Source: Bacteroidales bacterium
GTDB taxonomy: Bacteria; Bacteroidota; Bacteroidia; Flavobacteriales; Flavobacteriaceae
Length of the DNA stretch: 32,000 bases
Reading direction: 5' to 3'
Assembly: GCA_041694175.1 (NCBI GenBank)
Contig: JASMTR010000105.1
Location: 1-32,000, forward strand
Numbering within the stretch: position 1 is the stretch's first letter; every line of letters starts with the position of its first letter. The notes beneath the pieces are model-generated. The model saw nothing but the letters and a program-made list of their open reading frames with translations. It was not told the origin of the DNA and searched no databases. Positions 1,562 to 4,189 of the stretch are shown piece by piece. The position numbers and the translations under genes are program-made.

Positions 1562-4189
1562 ATGAATTCTAAAGAAATCAAAGCCAATTTTTTCAATTTT
1601 TTTAAACATAAAAATCACAATTTTGTGGCTTCTGCTCCAATTGTGCTTAAAGACGACCCTACCTTAATGTTTACCAATGCCGGAATGAATCAGTTCAAAT
1701 CTTTGTTTTTAGGAACTGAAAAAGTGGAGCACTCCAGAGTTTATAATACTCAAAAATGCCTTAGAGTTTCTGGCAAACACAACGACCTTGAAGAAGTCGG
1801 AAAAGACCACTATCATCACACTATGTTTGAGATGATGGGCAATTGGAGTTTCGGTGATCCTGACCGTCCGGCAGGCGGGTACTTTAAAAAAGAAGCCATC
1901 GAATGGGCTTGGGAGCTTTTAACCGAAGTTTATAAAATCAATCCTGACAATTTATACGTTACTGTTTTTGAAGGATATCAAGAAGAGGGTTTAGACAAAG
2001 ATAAAGAAGCTTTTGAAATATGGAAAACCATTGTTAGTGACAATAAAATTGTTCTGGGTAATAAAAAAGACAACTTCTGGGAAATGGGCGAGCAAGGCCC
2101 GTGTGGTCCATCGTCTGAAATTCATGTCGATCTGAGGTCAAAGGCTGACAAAAAAGCGGTTCCTGCTAAAAGTTTAGTCAATAAAGACCATCCTGAAGTC
2201 ATTGAGATTTGGAATCTTGTCTTTATCCAGTTTAATAGAAAAGCCAATGGTTCCTTAGAAAATCTACCTCAAAAACACGTCGATACGGGTATGGGGTTTG
2301 AACGTTTATGTCGTGTACTTCAAAATAAAACATCTAATTATGACACCGATATTTTTCAGCCTATTATTAAAACTATAGAAAAAATATCTGGGCATACTTA
2401 CGGAAAAAATGAAGAGATAGACATTGCCATCAGAGTGATTGCAGACCATATTCGTGCCGTGACATTTTGTATAGCGGACGGACAGTTGCCATCAAGTAAC
2501 GGCGCTGGTTATGTGGTTAGGCGTATTCTTAGAAGAGCTGTGCGTTATGCTTATACTTTTTTAAACATAAATAAACCGTTTATGTTTGAATTGGTTGAAG
2601 TTTTAAACCAACAACTCGGAGAAGATTATCCAGAATTATCTAAGCAAAAAAAACTTTGTCAACGGGTCATAAAAGAAGAAGAGCAAAGCTTTCTCAAAAC
2701 TTTATCTCAAGGTTTAAAACGCCTTGAAGATATCATCAAGGAAAGCTCGACTAAAACCATTTCAGGACAAAAAGCCTTTGAACTCTTTGACACTTATGGC
2801 TTTCCTATCGATTTAACAGCTTTAATTTTAAATGAAAACGGTTTTGACTATGATAAAAACGAATTCAAATCGGCTTTAGAACAACAGAAAAAACGCTCTC
2901 AATCGGCTTCTGAAAGTCAAACAGATGATTGGACGGTTGTTGAAAATAATGAGGCTAATGAATTTGTAGGTTACGATAACTTAAAAACGACCTCAAAAAT
3001 TATAAAATACCGCAGTTTTAAAACCAAAAAAGAAGGTCAACGCTATCAAATTGTGTTAGACCAAACCCCTTTTTATCCAGAAGGTGGCGGACAAGTTGGA
3101 GACCGTGGACAATTTATTTTTGACAATGAAAATATCGACGTTTTAGATACCAAAAAAGAACACGGCGATATCATACATATTACAAAAAAATTACCCTCAA
3201 ATTTAAAACAGAGTTTTAGTGCTAAAGTCAATGCTCAAAAACGCTTCCTTTCAGCTTGTAACCATTCTGCAACGCATTTGTTACATCACGCTTTAAGAGA
3301 AGTTTTAGGTCATCACGTTGAGCAAAAAGGTTCATTAGTCAATGATAAATACTTACGTTTTGATTTTTCTCATTTCGAAAAACTGAGCCCTGATGAGCTT
3401 TCTTCAATTGAACAAAAAGTCAACACTCAGATTTCAGAACATATCGCTTTAGAAGAAAATCGCAATGCTGATTTTGAAGAAGCTAAAGCCCAAGGTGCAA
3501 TGGCTTTGTTTGGCGAAAAATACGGCGACAAAGTGCGCAGCATCAAATTTGGTAATTCTATAGAACTCTGTGGTGGCACACACGTTAAAAACACGGCTGA
3601 AATTTGGTATTTCAAAATCACGAGTCAATCTTCTGTGGCTTCTGGTGTAAGACGGGTTGAGGCCATTACTAACAAAGCGGCCAAACAGTATTTAGAAGAA
3701 AAAGATGCTGAAATTCAAGAAATATTAAACTTATTGGGGTCAAATCAACAACCCGTTCAGCAAGTTGAAAAATTAATTCAAGACATAGAGAGTCTTAAAA
3801 ACGAAAATCAAACATTACTTCAAGACAAGGCCAAAACCATAAAATCTGAATTAAAAAGTTCTGCTGAAACGATTAATGATGTTAATTTCATCGCCAAACA
3901 AATTGATTTAGATGCCAAGGCTATAAGAGATGTTGCCTTTCAACTCGCTGGAGAAATGGATAATTTGTTTTTAGTTTTAGGCTCTAATCAAAATGGAAAA
4001 GCCATTTTAAGTTGTTATATTTCAAAAAATTTAGTTGAGCAAAACGATTACAACGCTGGAAAAATCATTAGAGAACTCGGTAAACACATTCAAGGCGGCG
4101 GCGGCGGTCAAGCCTTTTTTGCAACTGCTGGTGGTAAAAACCCCGACGGCATACCTAAAGCTTTACAAGAAGTTAAATCTTATCTATAA
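1562..4189 (+). CDS. alaS: alanine--tRNA ligase (carries a 7-aa in-frame insertion, see findings)
   Basis: Full-length AlaRS homology: [15 protein letters not shown]..YFK, editing-domain HSATHLLH and CGGTH, and C-terminal GGGGGQ. The ORF opens at TTG 1556, but ATG 1562 (MNSKEIK) is the more likely start. Confidence 0.97.
   Translation: [875 protein letters not shown]
1859..1879 (+). repeat. 21-nt GC-rich micro-element, copy A (CCTGACCGTCCGGCAGGCGGG), in frame inside alaS
   Basis: 17/21 G+C in AT-rich surroundings. It encodes PDRPAGG between the D and Y of the conserved SFGDYFK motif, and is 18/21 identical to the reverse complement of 5918-5938. Confidence 0.65.

What the first reader, a model, noticed from the sequence alone, without database searches (positions are those of the whole stretch)
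1859..1879. A 21-nt GC-rich element is inserted in frame into the invariant SFGDYFK motif of alanyl-tRNA synthetase
The AlaS translation reads [36 protein letters not shown]. In characterised AlaRS (for example E. coli ...GNFSFGDYFK...) the residues G-D-Y-F-K are contiguous. The seven extra codons are exactly CCTGACCGTCCGGCAGGCGGG, which is 17/21 G+C and stands out sharply from the AT-rich flanks. The reading frame is preserved in an essential single-copy gene, so the insertion is apparently tolerated, probably as an extra Pro/Gly-rich loop at a turn. The same 21-mer recurs inverted in higB (18/21 identical) and, more diverged, at 14928-14948. This therefore looks like a discrete insertion element rather than lineage-specific loop growth. 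The behaviour parallels Rickettsia palindromic elements, which also insert in frame into ORFs, but at 21 nt this element is far shorter than any RPE, REP or MITE I know. I do not recognise it as described. The mechanism is open: RAYT-like mobilisation, templated insertion, excision footprint or gene conversion.
Basis: partly seen in the sequence, partly recalled or inferred. Interest (0 to 1): 0.85.

Follow-up and report, generated by a model that had tools for sequence, protein, structure and literature searches.

The report
Tiny 21-base mobile hairpin element
The seven extra codons in the alanyl-tRNA synthetase gene are a copy of a 21-base GC-rich hairpin element that sits, almost letter for letter the same, inside genes and repeats of bacteria from more than ten phyla. 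It behaves like one of the smallest mobile DNAs known, and its mode of spread is unknown.

Summary
Window 1859-1879 (CCTGACCGTCCGGCAGGCGGG) is an in-frame 21-nt insert in alaS. An inverted copy lies in higB (5918-5938) and a decayed relative at 14930-14948.

It is not a lineage-specific loop. It is one substitution from a consensus, E = CCTGCCCGTCCGGCAGGCGGG. In at least 12 Flavobacteriaceae alaS genes E occupies the same site with 21/21 identity, although the flanks are only 61-83% identical. Close relatives (92% and 86-87% AlaRS identity) lack it.

It was absent from 5,426 E. coli genomes.

E has no target duplication and no stop codon in any frame. It lies in frame in MetRS, LeuRS, ArgRS, SecA, sigma-70 and phage tail genes (five copies in one tape-measure gene), in hairpin loops, in heptamer arrays, and nested in itself.

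Best reading: a trans-mobilised ultra-small mobile element, closest to the cyanobacterial SDRs and to intragenic REPs. The enzyme, the cross-phylum invariance and the alaS hot spot remain unexplained. The searchable literature gave no description of it.

The parts
1859..1879 (+). Copy of element E (consensus CCTGCCCGTCCGGCAGGCGGG) with one substitution (C5 to A; sub-family E-5A). Translated as PDRPAGG.
   Evidence: Empty site GGC GAT|TAC in Flavobacterium sp. CS20 (L150) and GGC GAC|TAC in L001. The E-5A variant recurs only in Flavobacteriaceae loci L042, L050 and L073.
1562..4189 (+). alaS (alanyl-tRNA synthetase), the host gene. The insert falls between Asp99 and Tyr107, in the loop between strand 88-96 and helix 109-123.
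   Evidence: Pfam PF01411, PF07973 and PF02272 on homologs; AlphaFold model; mean pLDDT of residues 101-110 is 65, against 93 for 111-120.
5918..5938 (-). Copy of E in the opposite orientation with two substitutions from the consensus. Translated in the higB frame as (G)TRLLDGQ(V).
   Evidence: Of 120 HigB homologs, 108 are 93 aa and read ..NASEVEI[IV]DYH; 8 carry ..EVE-TRLPDGQ-VIDYH at this site.
5653..5964 (+). higB-like toxin gene, host of the second copy.
   Evidence: PF05015, E = 8.9e-24; the profile match ends just before the insert.
5961..6269 (+). higA-like HTH antitoxin gene, partner of higB. It is not part of the element. The whole higBA module is absent at this position in relatives L001 and L147.
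14930..14948 (-). Decayed relative of sister family E2 (CCTGCCTGTCCGGCAGGCAGG) with a 1-nt deletion and 2 substitutions. It is intergenic, between convergent genes.
   Evidence: The orthologous spacer in L003 lacks it.

Best explanation
**What it is (shown)**
- The 21 nt are a copy of E, a discrete GC-rich 21-nt unit.
- As a single strand E folds into a 6-bp hairpin (CCTGCC/GGCAGG) with a 5-nt loop and a 4-nt tail.
- E is a very small, non-autonomous mobile DNA. It is inserted with exact boundaries and without duplicating the target, in either orientation.
- It inserts into coding sequence, into the loops of other small hairpins, into tandem heptamer arrays, and into copies of itself.
- E is 21 nt long, has no stop codon in any of its six frames, and begins with CC and ends with GG. 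It therefore cannot create a stop codon at a junction, and it never breaks a reading frame.

**Inferred**
- E is read through as seven small or flexible residues. It survives where the protein tolerates an extra surface loop, as in AlaRS and HigB here.
- After insertion, copies decay by substitution, internal expansion or deletion.

**Least certain step**
- I propose that E moves as a single-stranded hairpin handled in trans by an enzyme encoded elsewhere in the genome. My best guess is an HUH/Y1 (IS200/RAYT-like) 'peel and paste' type, at roughly 0.25.
- The confidence figure below applies to 'discrete mobile insertion element translated as a loop', not to the enzyme.
For: **Presence/absence of exactly 21 nt**
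- alaS is filled in the window, L003, L004, L112, L149 and nine metagenome contigs. It is empty in L001, L147, L148 and L150.
- higB is filled in 8 of 120 homologs.

**Nucleotide-level identity**
- 7/7 codons are identical between alaS genes that share only 41-53% of codons at identical residues.
- E is 21/21 identical in at least 12 alaS genes whose 300-nt flanks are 61-83% identical.

**Copy number and spread**
- In fetched DNA of at most 60% G+C there are 99 exact and 18 one-mismatch copies.
- They come from many phyla, against about 0.3 exact matches expected by chance in 596 Gb (my calculation).
- None were found in 28 Gb of E. coli.
- There are 13 copies in a 14-kb prophage stretch, including 5 in one tape-measure ORF, in both orientations.

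**Other features**
- Copies share no flanking sequence. There is no target duplication.
- Nesting: L053, L142, L130; in L149 an E3 unit sits inside the alaS copy of Mesohalobacter salilacus.
- Hairpin flanks are enriched 2-2.5-fold. Heptamer arrays span the junction in 4/124 copies, against 3/4960 control positions.
- All six frames are used in long ORFs, and the two Cys-containing frames are depleted (7 of 69). This fits translation.
- Host genes include MetRS, LeuRS, ArgRS, SecA, sigma-70 and HsdS.
- Decay series in AlaRS: PARPKEG, PALPTGG, PDGRNQNGVGG and others.
- L148 reads TTT GGC GGG TAC. I predicted this before looking, for a 21-nt deletion between GGCG repeats of a filled allele.
- Lineage-restricted sub-families (E-5A, E-7A) point to descent from genomic copies.
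Against: - No mobilising gene was found. No protein family recurs near copies (at most 6 of about 135 loci).
- Both orientations occur within one gene. This is not what strictly strand-specific IS200/IS605 transposition predicts.
- There is no conserved target tetranucleotide. The only biases are a pyrimidine at +1 (99 of 127) and T at -2.
- REP/RAYT systems have species-specific repeats. The same 21-mer across more than ten phyla is not explained by that model.
- Twelve or more diverged alaS genes hold a pristine copy at one site, yet the roughly 150 kb around them hold no other copy. That needs a strong hot spot or nucleotide-level selection, and I can explain neither.
- Mobility is inferred from comparative patterns. 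No transposition event was observed.
Confidence: 0.8

Rival explanations
1. Copy-out from a fixed template. E is not copied from genomic copies. It is written into nicks, breaks or exposed hairpin loops from a conserved short template, for example an RNA used by a reverse transcriptase (telomerase-like) or an abundant small single-stranded DNA. Existing copies may be 'refreshed' from the same template.
For: - It would explain why the consensus is identical across phyla.
- It would explain why copies in alaS genes that differ by 20-39% in their flanks are still 21/21 identical.
- Boundaries are exact and there is no target duplication.
- From memory of its abstract (the paper is not held): Elhai et al. 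2008 favoured RNA intermediates for the comparable SDR elements.
Against: - No master copy or longer conserved context was found among about 150 flanks.
- No reverse transcriptase was seen near copies, but this was not searched systematically.
- Lineage-restricted sub-families argue that variants are inherited from genomic copies: E-5A in Flavobacteriaceae, E-7A at two different loci of IncC plasmids, and the E2/E3 families.
Confidence: 0.25
2. Domesticated or functional motif in alaS. The element inserted once, long ago, in a Flavobacteriaceae ancestor. It is kept by selection on the DNA or RNA sequence, for example an mRNA hairpin that tunes translation or a protein-binding site, with several losses.
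For: - All 21 positions, synonymous ones included, are conserved in at least 12 diverged alaS genes.
- No other E copy lies in about 150 kb around them.
- It is always in the same orientation and frame.
Against: - Filled, decayed and empty alleles are interleaved on the AlaRS tree, with at least 5 filled/empty sister pairs.
- Decayed versions (PDGRNQNGVGG and others) and clean losses show that the sequence is dispensable.
- In M. salilacus the hairpin is split by a nested E3.
- The same 21-mer sits in hundreds of unrelated places, where an alaS-specific role cannot apply.
Confidence: 0.15
3. Lineage-specific protein loop. An ordinary indel grew at a permissive turn of AlaRS under protein-level evolution, and the resemblance to the higB segment is chance.
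For: - The site is a loop.
- It tolerates inserts of 4-18 residues in various relatives.
Against: - The nucleotides are identical, not merely the peptide.
- The codons are GC-rich in 31-40% G+C genomes.
- The same 21-mer occurs in the opposite orientation in higB (0 expected by chance) and in over 100 other loci.
Confidence: 0.02
4. Assembly or library artefact, for example an adapter or a k = 21 assembler artefact.
For: - 21 is the smallest k-mer size of common assemblers.
- Many hits are in metagenome-assembled genomes.
Against: - E is present in cultured isolates sequenced independently: Arenibacter sp. F26102, Mesohalobacter salilacus, Flavivirga spp., Flavobacterium soyangense, Mucilaginibacter sp. 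PPCGB 2223, and Shewanella and Proteus IncC plasmids.
- Copies carry substitutions, nest in one another and decay in frame.
- E is absent from 5,426 E. coli assemblies.
Confidence: 0.01

Closest known systems
[quoted passage not shown] 2008, Genome Res 18:1484
   Same: - Size class: 21-27 nt.
- Predicted hairpin.
- Dispersed copies with exact boundaries.
- Embedded in tandem heptamer arrays.
- Nested in copies of themselves.
- Precise insertion into a short palindrome (SDR5 between nt 3 and 4 of HIP1; PMC4390886).
- No known enzyme.

The first five points are from my memory of the abstract, because the paper is not held.
   Different: - SDRs were reported only in Nostocaceae (PMC5861425). E is in many non-cyanobacterial phyla with one consensus.
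- About 60% of exact E copies lie in long ORFs.
- Sequence relatedness to SDR1-8 could not be checked.
REPs / REPINs and their RAYT (TnpA_REP) transposases, including intragenic REPs (Di Nocera et al. 2013, PMC3733652)
   Same: - GC-rich imperfect palindromes of 20-40 bp with a short unpaired tag or tail.
- Some REPs lie in frame inside genes, tRNA synthetase genes included.
- Some REPs are inserted within other small palindromes.
   Different: - E has no GTAG or CGTC terminal tag.
- E has a 6-bp stem. CGTC-REPs have 8-9 bp stems that start with A/T pairs and end in a CCA tail.
- E is mostly found as single units rather than doublets or clusters.
- E is largely intragenic.
- REP sequences are species- or genus-specific, whereas E is the same across phyla.
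- No RAYT was seen near copies.
Rickettsia palindromic elements (RPE)
   Same: Palindromic repeats found in frame within ORFs that probably still encode functional proteins (PMC3733652).
   Different: - From my own knowledge: RPEs are about 100-150 bp and confined to Rickettsia.
- E is 21 nt and cross-phylum.
Mobile G+C clusters and double-hairpin elements of fungal mitochondria, and the 'byp' elements of Magnusiomyces (from my own knowledge)
   Same: Short GC-rich palindromes that spread in AT-rich genomes and can sit inside protein-coding genes without destroying them.
   Different: - They are organellar, longer (about 30-60 nt) and lineage-specific.
- Byps are skipped by the ribosome. E keeps the frame, and its frame usage suggests it is translated.
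IS200/IS605-derived palindrome-associated elements (ssDNA 'peel and paste')
   Same: - No target duplication.
- Hairpin-based recognition.
- Seamless excision is possible, which would fit the clean empty sites.
   Different: - From my own knowledge: these need two different subterminal hairpins and a fixed target tetra- or pentanucleotide, and they show strand bias.
- E is one hairpin, has only weak target bias, and occurs in both orientations within one gene.

Membership tests
SDR (very small mobile repeats, Elhai 2008) | Dispersed repeat unit of about 21-27 nt with exact boundaries | tested here: met
   21 nt; the flanks of about 150 copies are unrelated.
SDR (very small mobile repeats, Elhai 2008) | Found inside tandem heptamer arrays and nested in copies of itself | tested here: met
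   Heptamer arrays in L009, L020, L098 and L116 (4/124 copies against 3/4960 control positions). Nested copies in L053, L142, L130, L135 and L149.
SDR (very small mobile repeats, Elhai 2008) | Sequence belongs to one of SDR1-SDR8 | not testable with these tools
   The paper is not held, and I do not remember the sequences.
SDR (very small mobile repeats, Elhai 2008) | Confined to Nostocaceae | tested here: not met
   The 84 contig titles printed for name Bacteroidota, Patescibacteria, Planctomycetota, Nitrospirota and others, and no cyanobacterium. The titles of loci L085-L124 were not shown.
REP / REPIN-RAYT | GC-rich imperfect palindrome of 20-40 bp | tested here: met
   6-bp stem, 5-nt loop, 4-nt tail; DNA minimum free energy -5.8 and -6.7 kcal/mol for the two strands.
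REP / REPIN-RAYT | Conserved terminal GTAG or CGTC tag; for CGTC-REPs, 8-9 bp stems starting with A/T pairs and a CCA tail | tested here: not met
   E starts with CCTG and ends with CGGG. CGTC occurs only inside the loop (one search compared with the sequence).
REP / REPIN-RAYT | Mainly extragenic, often in inverted doublets or clusters | tested here: not met
   69 of 115 exact copies lie in ORFs of at least 200 codons. Most loci hold single copies.
REP / REPIN-RAYT | A cognate RAYT/Y1 transposase gene in the genome, often flanked by the repeats | tested here: inconclusive
   No recurrent family within 8-kb neighbourhoods. Whole genomes could not be scanned.
MITE | Terminal inverted repeats plus a target-site duplication, 50-500 bp | tested here: not met
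   21 nt; no duplication at 127 junctions.
RPE | In-frame insertion of a palindromic repeat in ORFs | tested here: met
   alaS, higB, MetRS, LeuRS, ArgRS, SecA, sigma-70, HsdS and phage tail genes.
RPE | Unit of about 100-150 bp, restricted to Rickettsia | tested here: not met
   21 nt; other phyla.
IS200/IS605-type ssDNA elements | Fixed target tetra- or pentanucleotide 5' of the insertion, and a single orientation relative to replication | tested here: not met
   Only weak biases: +1 is C or T in 99/127, -2 is T in 62/127. In 14 kb of L142 there are 7 plus-strand and 6 minus-strand copies.

The most novel reading that the evidence does not exclude
E and its sisters E2 and E3 form a pan-bacterial class of 21-nt 'ORF-safe' mobile units. 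They would be written into DNA by an undescribed, widely distributed machinery that carries its own fixed template or has an extremely conserved recognition site. This would explain the letter-perfect consensus across more than ten phyla and the repeated, homing-like occupation of one site in the conserved SFGD|YFK motif of alaS. That would be a new mechanism of DNA mobility and the smallest known element using one.
Probability: 0.25. Interest if true: 0.95.

Novelty: new variant of a known kind. Interest (0 to 1): 0.85.

Why it matters
- **A mechanism still to be found.** If E is what it appears to be, bacteria of many phyla share a 21-base parasite that edits seven-residue loops into essential proteins: several aminoacyl-tRNA synthetases, SecA, sigma-70 and phage tail proteins. 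No enzyme can yet be named for it. The mechanism behind the only comparable elements, the cyanobacterial SDRs, has been open since 2008. E gives that question far more material, because it occurs in cultured Flavobacteriaceae and Mucilaginibacter isolates, IncC plasmids and a prophage with 13 copies in 14 kb.
- **Practical uses.** Copies mark recent insertions, which helps strain typing. They also mark permissive loop sites in proteins.
- **Annotation and alignment.** E can confound alignments, gene calling and models of protein families.
- **Targeting.** The recurrent pristine copy at one alaS site raises a testable question about targeting or nucleotide-level selection.

Tried and rejected
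**Alternative explanations rejected**
- **Chance:** rejected by shuffles and by the E. coli negative control.
- **Protein-level loop:** rejected by codon identity.
- **Artefact:** rejected because E occurs in isolates, decays and nests.
- **Recombination tract carrying E between species:** codon identity in the flanks is not raised.
- **Excision footprint of a larger element, or a longer master copy:** no shared flanks.

**Searches that found nothing**
- **Linked mobilising gene:** all-against-all clustering of 3,135 ORFs from the E loci gave no recurrent family.
- **E inside a structured RNA:** none. Copies lie only near RNase P and SRP RNA genes. The apparent tRNA hit in L054 is a 5' tRNA fragment beside a GIY-YIG-like ORF, and no tRNA is detected even after removing E.
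- **CGTC-REP membership:** the architecture does not fit.
- **Hairpin at the empty alaS site as the cause of the hot spot:** no significant fold.
- **Asymmetry of insertion next to the 3' or 5' arm of host hairpins:** 26 against 20, not convincing.
- **Literature:** searches for the sequence, its complement, sub-strings and the six encoded peptides found nothing relevant.

- The third protein search, with a 53-aa motif query, returned only short gene fragments and was wasted.
- BLAST of a tandem dimer against phages and plasmids gave mostly GC-rich noise. The exceptions were two IncC plasmids and a microvirus hairpin.
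Full report
**1. The observation**

Window 1859-1879 reads CCTGACCGTCCGGCAGGCGGG. 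It is 17/21 G+C in a window that averages about 35% G+C. It lies in frame in alaS (1562-4189, +) and gives ...[23 protein letters not shown]....

A search with up to 3 mismatches finds one more site, 5918-5938 on the minus strand: CTTGCCCGTCCAGCAGGCGGG. No such match occurred in 100 shuffles. This copy lies in a 103-aa ORF that matches the HigB-like toxin family, and the match ends just before the insert (PF05015).

Window 14930-14948 read on the minus strand is CCTGCCTGTCGGCAGACAG. That is 3 edits from a sister consensus, E2 (below). Shuffled windows give 0-1 hits even at 6 edits.

**2. It is a DNA element, not a protein loop**

*AlaRS lengths and alleles*
- The closest AlaRS relatives are 868 aa, seven residues shorter. 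They read SFGDYFK or SFGGYFK: P0002 at 87% and P0003 at 86% identity.
- Members of the query's own 90% cluster are also insert-free: Flavobacterium sp. CS20 and Psychroflexus sp. MBR-150, at 92-93%.
- At the DNA level the empty allele is GGC GAT|TAC (L150) or GGC GAC|TAC (L001). The filled allele has exactly 21 nt at the bar.

*The same insert in distant relatives*
- The same site is filled in scattered, more distant Flavobacteriaceae: PARPAGG, PARPKEG, PALPTGG, PARTAGG, PARPEGG.
- Longer decayed forms also occur, such as PDGRNQNGVGG and SARPARLKRNGQAGG.
- In L003 (76% AlaRS identity), L004 (Arenibacter sp. F26102, 63%) and L112 the insert is CCTGCCCGTCCGGCAGGCGGG, 21/21 identical. I call this consensus E.

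*Codon-level test*
- Between these genes only 41-53% of codons are the same at identical residues. All 7 insert codons are identical in every pair, and the flanking 25 codons are not unusually similar.
- A metagenome scan for a pristine E at this alaS site found nine more contigs. In all, at least 12 alaS genes whose 300-nt flanks are 61-83% identical carry the identical 21-mer.

*HigB*
- 108 of 120 homologs are 93 aa and end ...NASEVEI[IV]DYH.
- Eight carry ...EVE-TRLPDGQ-VIDYH. That is E in reverse orientation, splitting an Ile codon.

**3. Distribution**

*Genome scan*
- I scanned one genome per species with CNTGNCCGTCCNGCAGGCGGG.
- Although three positions were free, about 110 of the 129 matches are the exact consensus.
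- The contigs are labelled Bacteroidota (many), Patescibacteria (Saccharibacteria, Giovannoni-, Jorgensen-, Morani- and Peregrinibacteria), Planctomycetota (Scalindua, Brocadiaceae), Nitrospirota, Chloroflexota, Ignavibacteriota, Chlorobi, Elusimicrobia, Margulisbacteria, Marinimicrobia, Acidobacteriota and some Proteobacteria. I could not verify these labels independently.
- Matches in genomes above 60% G+C mostly differ at the free positions and are probably chance.
- My calculation gives about 0.3 exact matches expected in 596 Gb of random sequence.

*Controls and counts*
- 28 Gb of complete E. coli genomes hold no copy.
- In about 1 Mb of fetched DNA of at most 60% G+C there are 99 exact, 18 one-mismatch, 5 two-mismatch and 7 three-mismatch copies.
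- Discounting the copies that seeded each locus, roughly half of all copies are exact.

*Sister families and variants*
- E2 (CCTGCCTGTCCGG[C/T]AGGCAGG) and E3 (CCTGCCTCGCCGGCAGGCAGG) behave alike.
- Variant E-5A, the window's form, recurs only in Flavobacteriaceae: L042, L050, L073.
- Variant E-7A occurs at two different loci of IncC plasmids from Shewanella and Proteus.

*Viral contigs*
- Viral-contig scans found 19 loci with E.
- Prophage-like contigs of one termite-gut MAG are saturated with it. L142 has 10 exact and 3 near copies in 14 kb. Five are in frame in a 1,054-aa tape-measure ORF in both orientations. Others lie in a terminase and in a 759-aa ORF.

**4. Anatomy and contexts**

*Fold and sequence properties*
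- As single-stranded DNA or RNA, E folds into the 6-bp hairpin CCTGCC/GGCAGG with loop CGTCC and a 3' tail CGGG. The complementary strand has the same stem with a 5' tail.
- An alternative hairpin (positions 5-8 with 18-21) is supported by one covarying pair, C7-G19 to T7-A19, which defines E2. That is only one or a few events.
- Variation among decayed copies is concentrated in positions 7-13.
- E has no stop codon in any of its six frames. It starts with CC and ends with GG on both strands, so junction codons cannot be stops either (read directly from the sequence).

*Flanks*
- The flanks of 127 distinct exact copies show no target duplication and only weak bias: +1 is C or T in 99, -2 is T in 62.
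- There are two main junction classes, A|T (30 copies) and TC|CG (15 copies).
- Copies share no flanking similarity, so the unit is the 21-mer alone.

*Where copies sit*
- Coding sequence: 69 of 115 exact copies lie in ORFs of at least 200 codons.
- All six frames are used: PARPAGG 19, RLPDGQ 22, PPAGRAG 14, LPVRQAG 7, PACRTGR 4, CPSGRR 3.
- Depletion of the two Cys-containing frames (chi-square about 28, 5 df, my calculation) fits selection on a translated peptide.
- Pfam identifies host ORFs as MetRS, SecA, a PEP-utilising enzyme, ArgRS, LeuRS, a T2SSE ATPase, sigma-70 and HsdS.
- Loops of other small hairpins: enriched 2-2.5-fold over shuffled flank pairs.
- Tandem heptamer arrays: 4/124 copies against 3/4960 control positions.
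- Copies of itself or its sisters.
- No copy lies inside an Rfam RNA.

*The nearest named relative*
In Mesohalobacter salilacus (AlaRS 93% identical to the window's), the alaS copy of E itself carries a nested E3. The DNA reads GAT CCT GCC CGT CCG [CCT GCC TCG CCG GCA GGC AGG] GCA GGC GGG TAC, which gives [21 protein letters not shown].

**5. Turnover at alaS**

- On a neighbour-joining tree of AlaRS with the insert masked, filled, decayed and empty alleles are interleaved. At least five sister pairs differ in state.
- One loss can be read directly. I predicted that SFGG|YFK alleles could arise by deleting 21 nt between the GGCG repeats of a filled allele, leaving TTT GGC GGG TAC. L148 has exactly that. 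L001 has identical flanks and reads GGC GAC TAC.
- Pristine copies in deeply diverged genes, decayed copies in their sisters, and no other E copy in about 150 kb around these genes together mean one of two things. Either the site is a strong insertion hot spot that is refilled repeatedly, or the nucleotides are under selection.
- The empty site has no significant hairpin and does not match the general flank bias well. I cannot explain this.

**6. Effect on the protein**

An AlphaFold2 model of the window's AlaRS (43-sequence alignment, mean pLDDT 80.9) puts residues 97-108 in a coil between strand 88-96 and helix 109-123. Confidence is lower over the insert: the block 101-110 averages 65, against 93 for 111-120.

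**7. Mechanism**

*Shown*
- A discrete 21-nt unit with exact boundaries, no target duplication and either orientation.
- Multi-copy, nested and decaying, with lineage sub-families.
- Presence/absence at orthologous sites.

*Inferred*
- Mobility in trans, and translation as a loop.

*Best guess for the engine*
- A single-strand hairpin handled by an HUH/Y1-type enzyme.
- For: hairpin plus short tail as in REPs, no duplication, clean empty sites, and a preference for loops, which are single-stranded.
- Against: both orientations occur within one gene; there is no fixed target motif; no linked gene was found; and REP/RAYT pairs diverge between species whereas E does not.

*Alternative*
- A fixed-template, copy-out mechanism would explain the invariance. 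It is at odds with the lineage sub-families.
- I put about 0.25 on each and leave the rest open.

**8. What is known**

*Searches*
- Full-text searches for the 21-mer, its complement, sub-strings and the encoded peptides found nothing relevant. Two keyword searches also found no description.
- The library covers only open-access papers, so this is not proof of novelty.

*Closest precedents*
- The SDR elements of Nostocaceae. They are 21-27 nt, found in heptamer arrays and nested in themselves (from my memory of the Elhai 2008 abstract). SDR5 inserts precisely within HIP1, and SDRs have not been found outside Nostocaceae.
- REPs. They are 20-40 bp, and some lie in frame inside genes, tRNA synthetase genes included; CGTC-REPs have no known transposase.

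*Assessment*
- E fails the REP tag and architecture tests, and it is not cyanobacterial.
- I therefore file it as a new variant of the 'very small mobile repeat' kind. Three properties I have not seen described: one consensus across many phyla, predominantly intragenic in-frame copies, and a recurrent pristine copy at one site of an essential gene.

**9. Caveats**

- Taxon labels of MAGs were not verified.
- No whole genome could be scanned.
- Mobility is inferred, not observed.

Noticed in passing
window 5653-6269, compared with L001 and L147: The whole higBA module is absent between the HepT/MNT-like pair and the PPK2 gene in the close relatives L001 and L147. It was probably acquired horizontally with its E copy already in place, since HigB homologs of 83-89% identity carry the same insert.
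   Followed up: partly
window 8569-8716 (-) and window 4-76 (-): Rfam matches: Flavo-1 sRNA (45.7 bits, gathering score 42) and a tRNA. Both are unrelated to the element.
   Followed up: no
L054 4540-4640: In a Candidatus Harrisonbacteria contig, E splits what looks like the 5' half of a tRNA (GCCAATGTAGCTCAGATGGTAGA|E|GC...). It is followed directly by an ORF starting MYYVYVLK, which is GIY-YIG-like by eye. No tRNA is detected with or without E.
   Followed up: partly
L146 1501-1525 (Microvirus mar1, MZ089747.1, 4138-4162): An intergenic hairpin after the replication-initiator gene of an ssDNA microvirus shares 16 consecutive bases with the core of E (CTGCCCGTCCGGCAGG), flanked by GGGG/GGGGC. 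This could be chance, or a link to rolling-circle/HUH biology.
   Followed up: no
L144 (Shewanella baltica IncC plasmid NZ_OX461118.1) and L145 (Proteus mirabilis pJZ49-tet(X4)): Both IncC plasmids carry the same one-substitution variant, CCTGCCAGTCCGGCAGGCGGG, at different loci. In Shewanella it adds PASPAGG near the C-terminus of HsdS. HsdS is also a host in a Brocadiaceae contig (L084).
   Followed up: partly
Many loci, e.g. L015, L016, L042, L055, L067, L105, L124; L012, L062, L072: E often sits in the loops of other short repeated hairpins that recur across distant genomes. Examples are ...GTCATGCTGAGC|E|..GTCGAAGCATGAC-like units, GTCATTCCCGCGAAA|E|GCGGGAATCC and GGCGGATC|E|CGCC. This suggests a wider population of tiny hairpin repeats that I did not characterise.
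   Followed up: no
L149 2210-8291 (Mesohalobacter salilacus): A 1,603-aa ArdC/MPTase-PolyVal/ParB-like protein and a tyrosine integrase lie just upstream of the MerR/M23/alaS block. This looks like the end of an integrated mobile element, and it is absent from the window.
   Followed up: no
L081 4499-5077 and L119 422-899: E copies lie immediately upstream of the RNase P RNA gene (Mucilaginibacter) and between a tRNA and the SRP RNA gene. They are close to, but not inside, the structured RNAs.
   Followed up: no
AlaRS homologs P0003, P0005, P0011, P0013, P0018, P0023-P0028: The 'invariant' Asp of SFGDYFK is G, E or N in several insert-free relatives. At least the GGC GGG allele (L148) looks like a scar of imprecise loss of the element.
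   Followed up: yes
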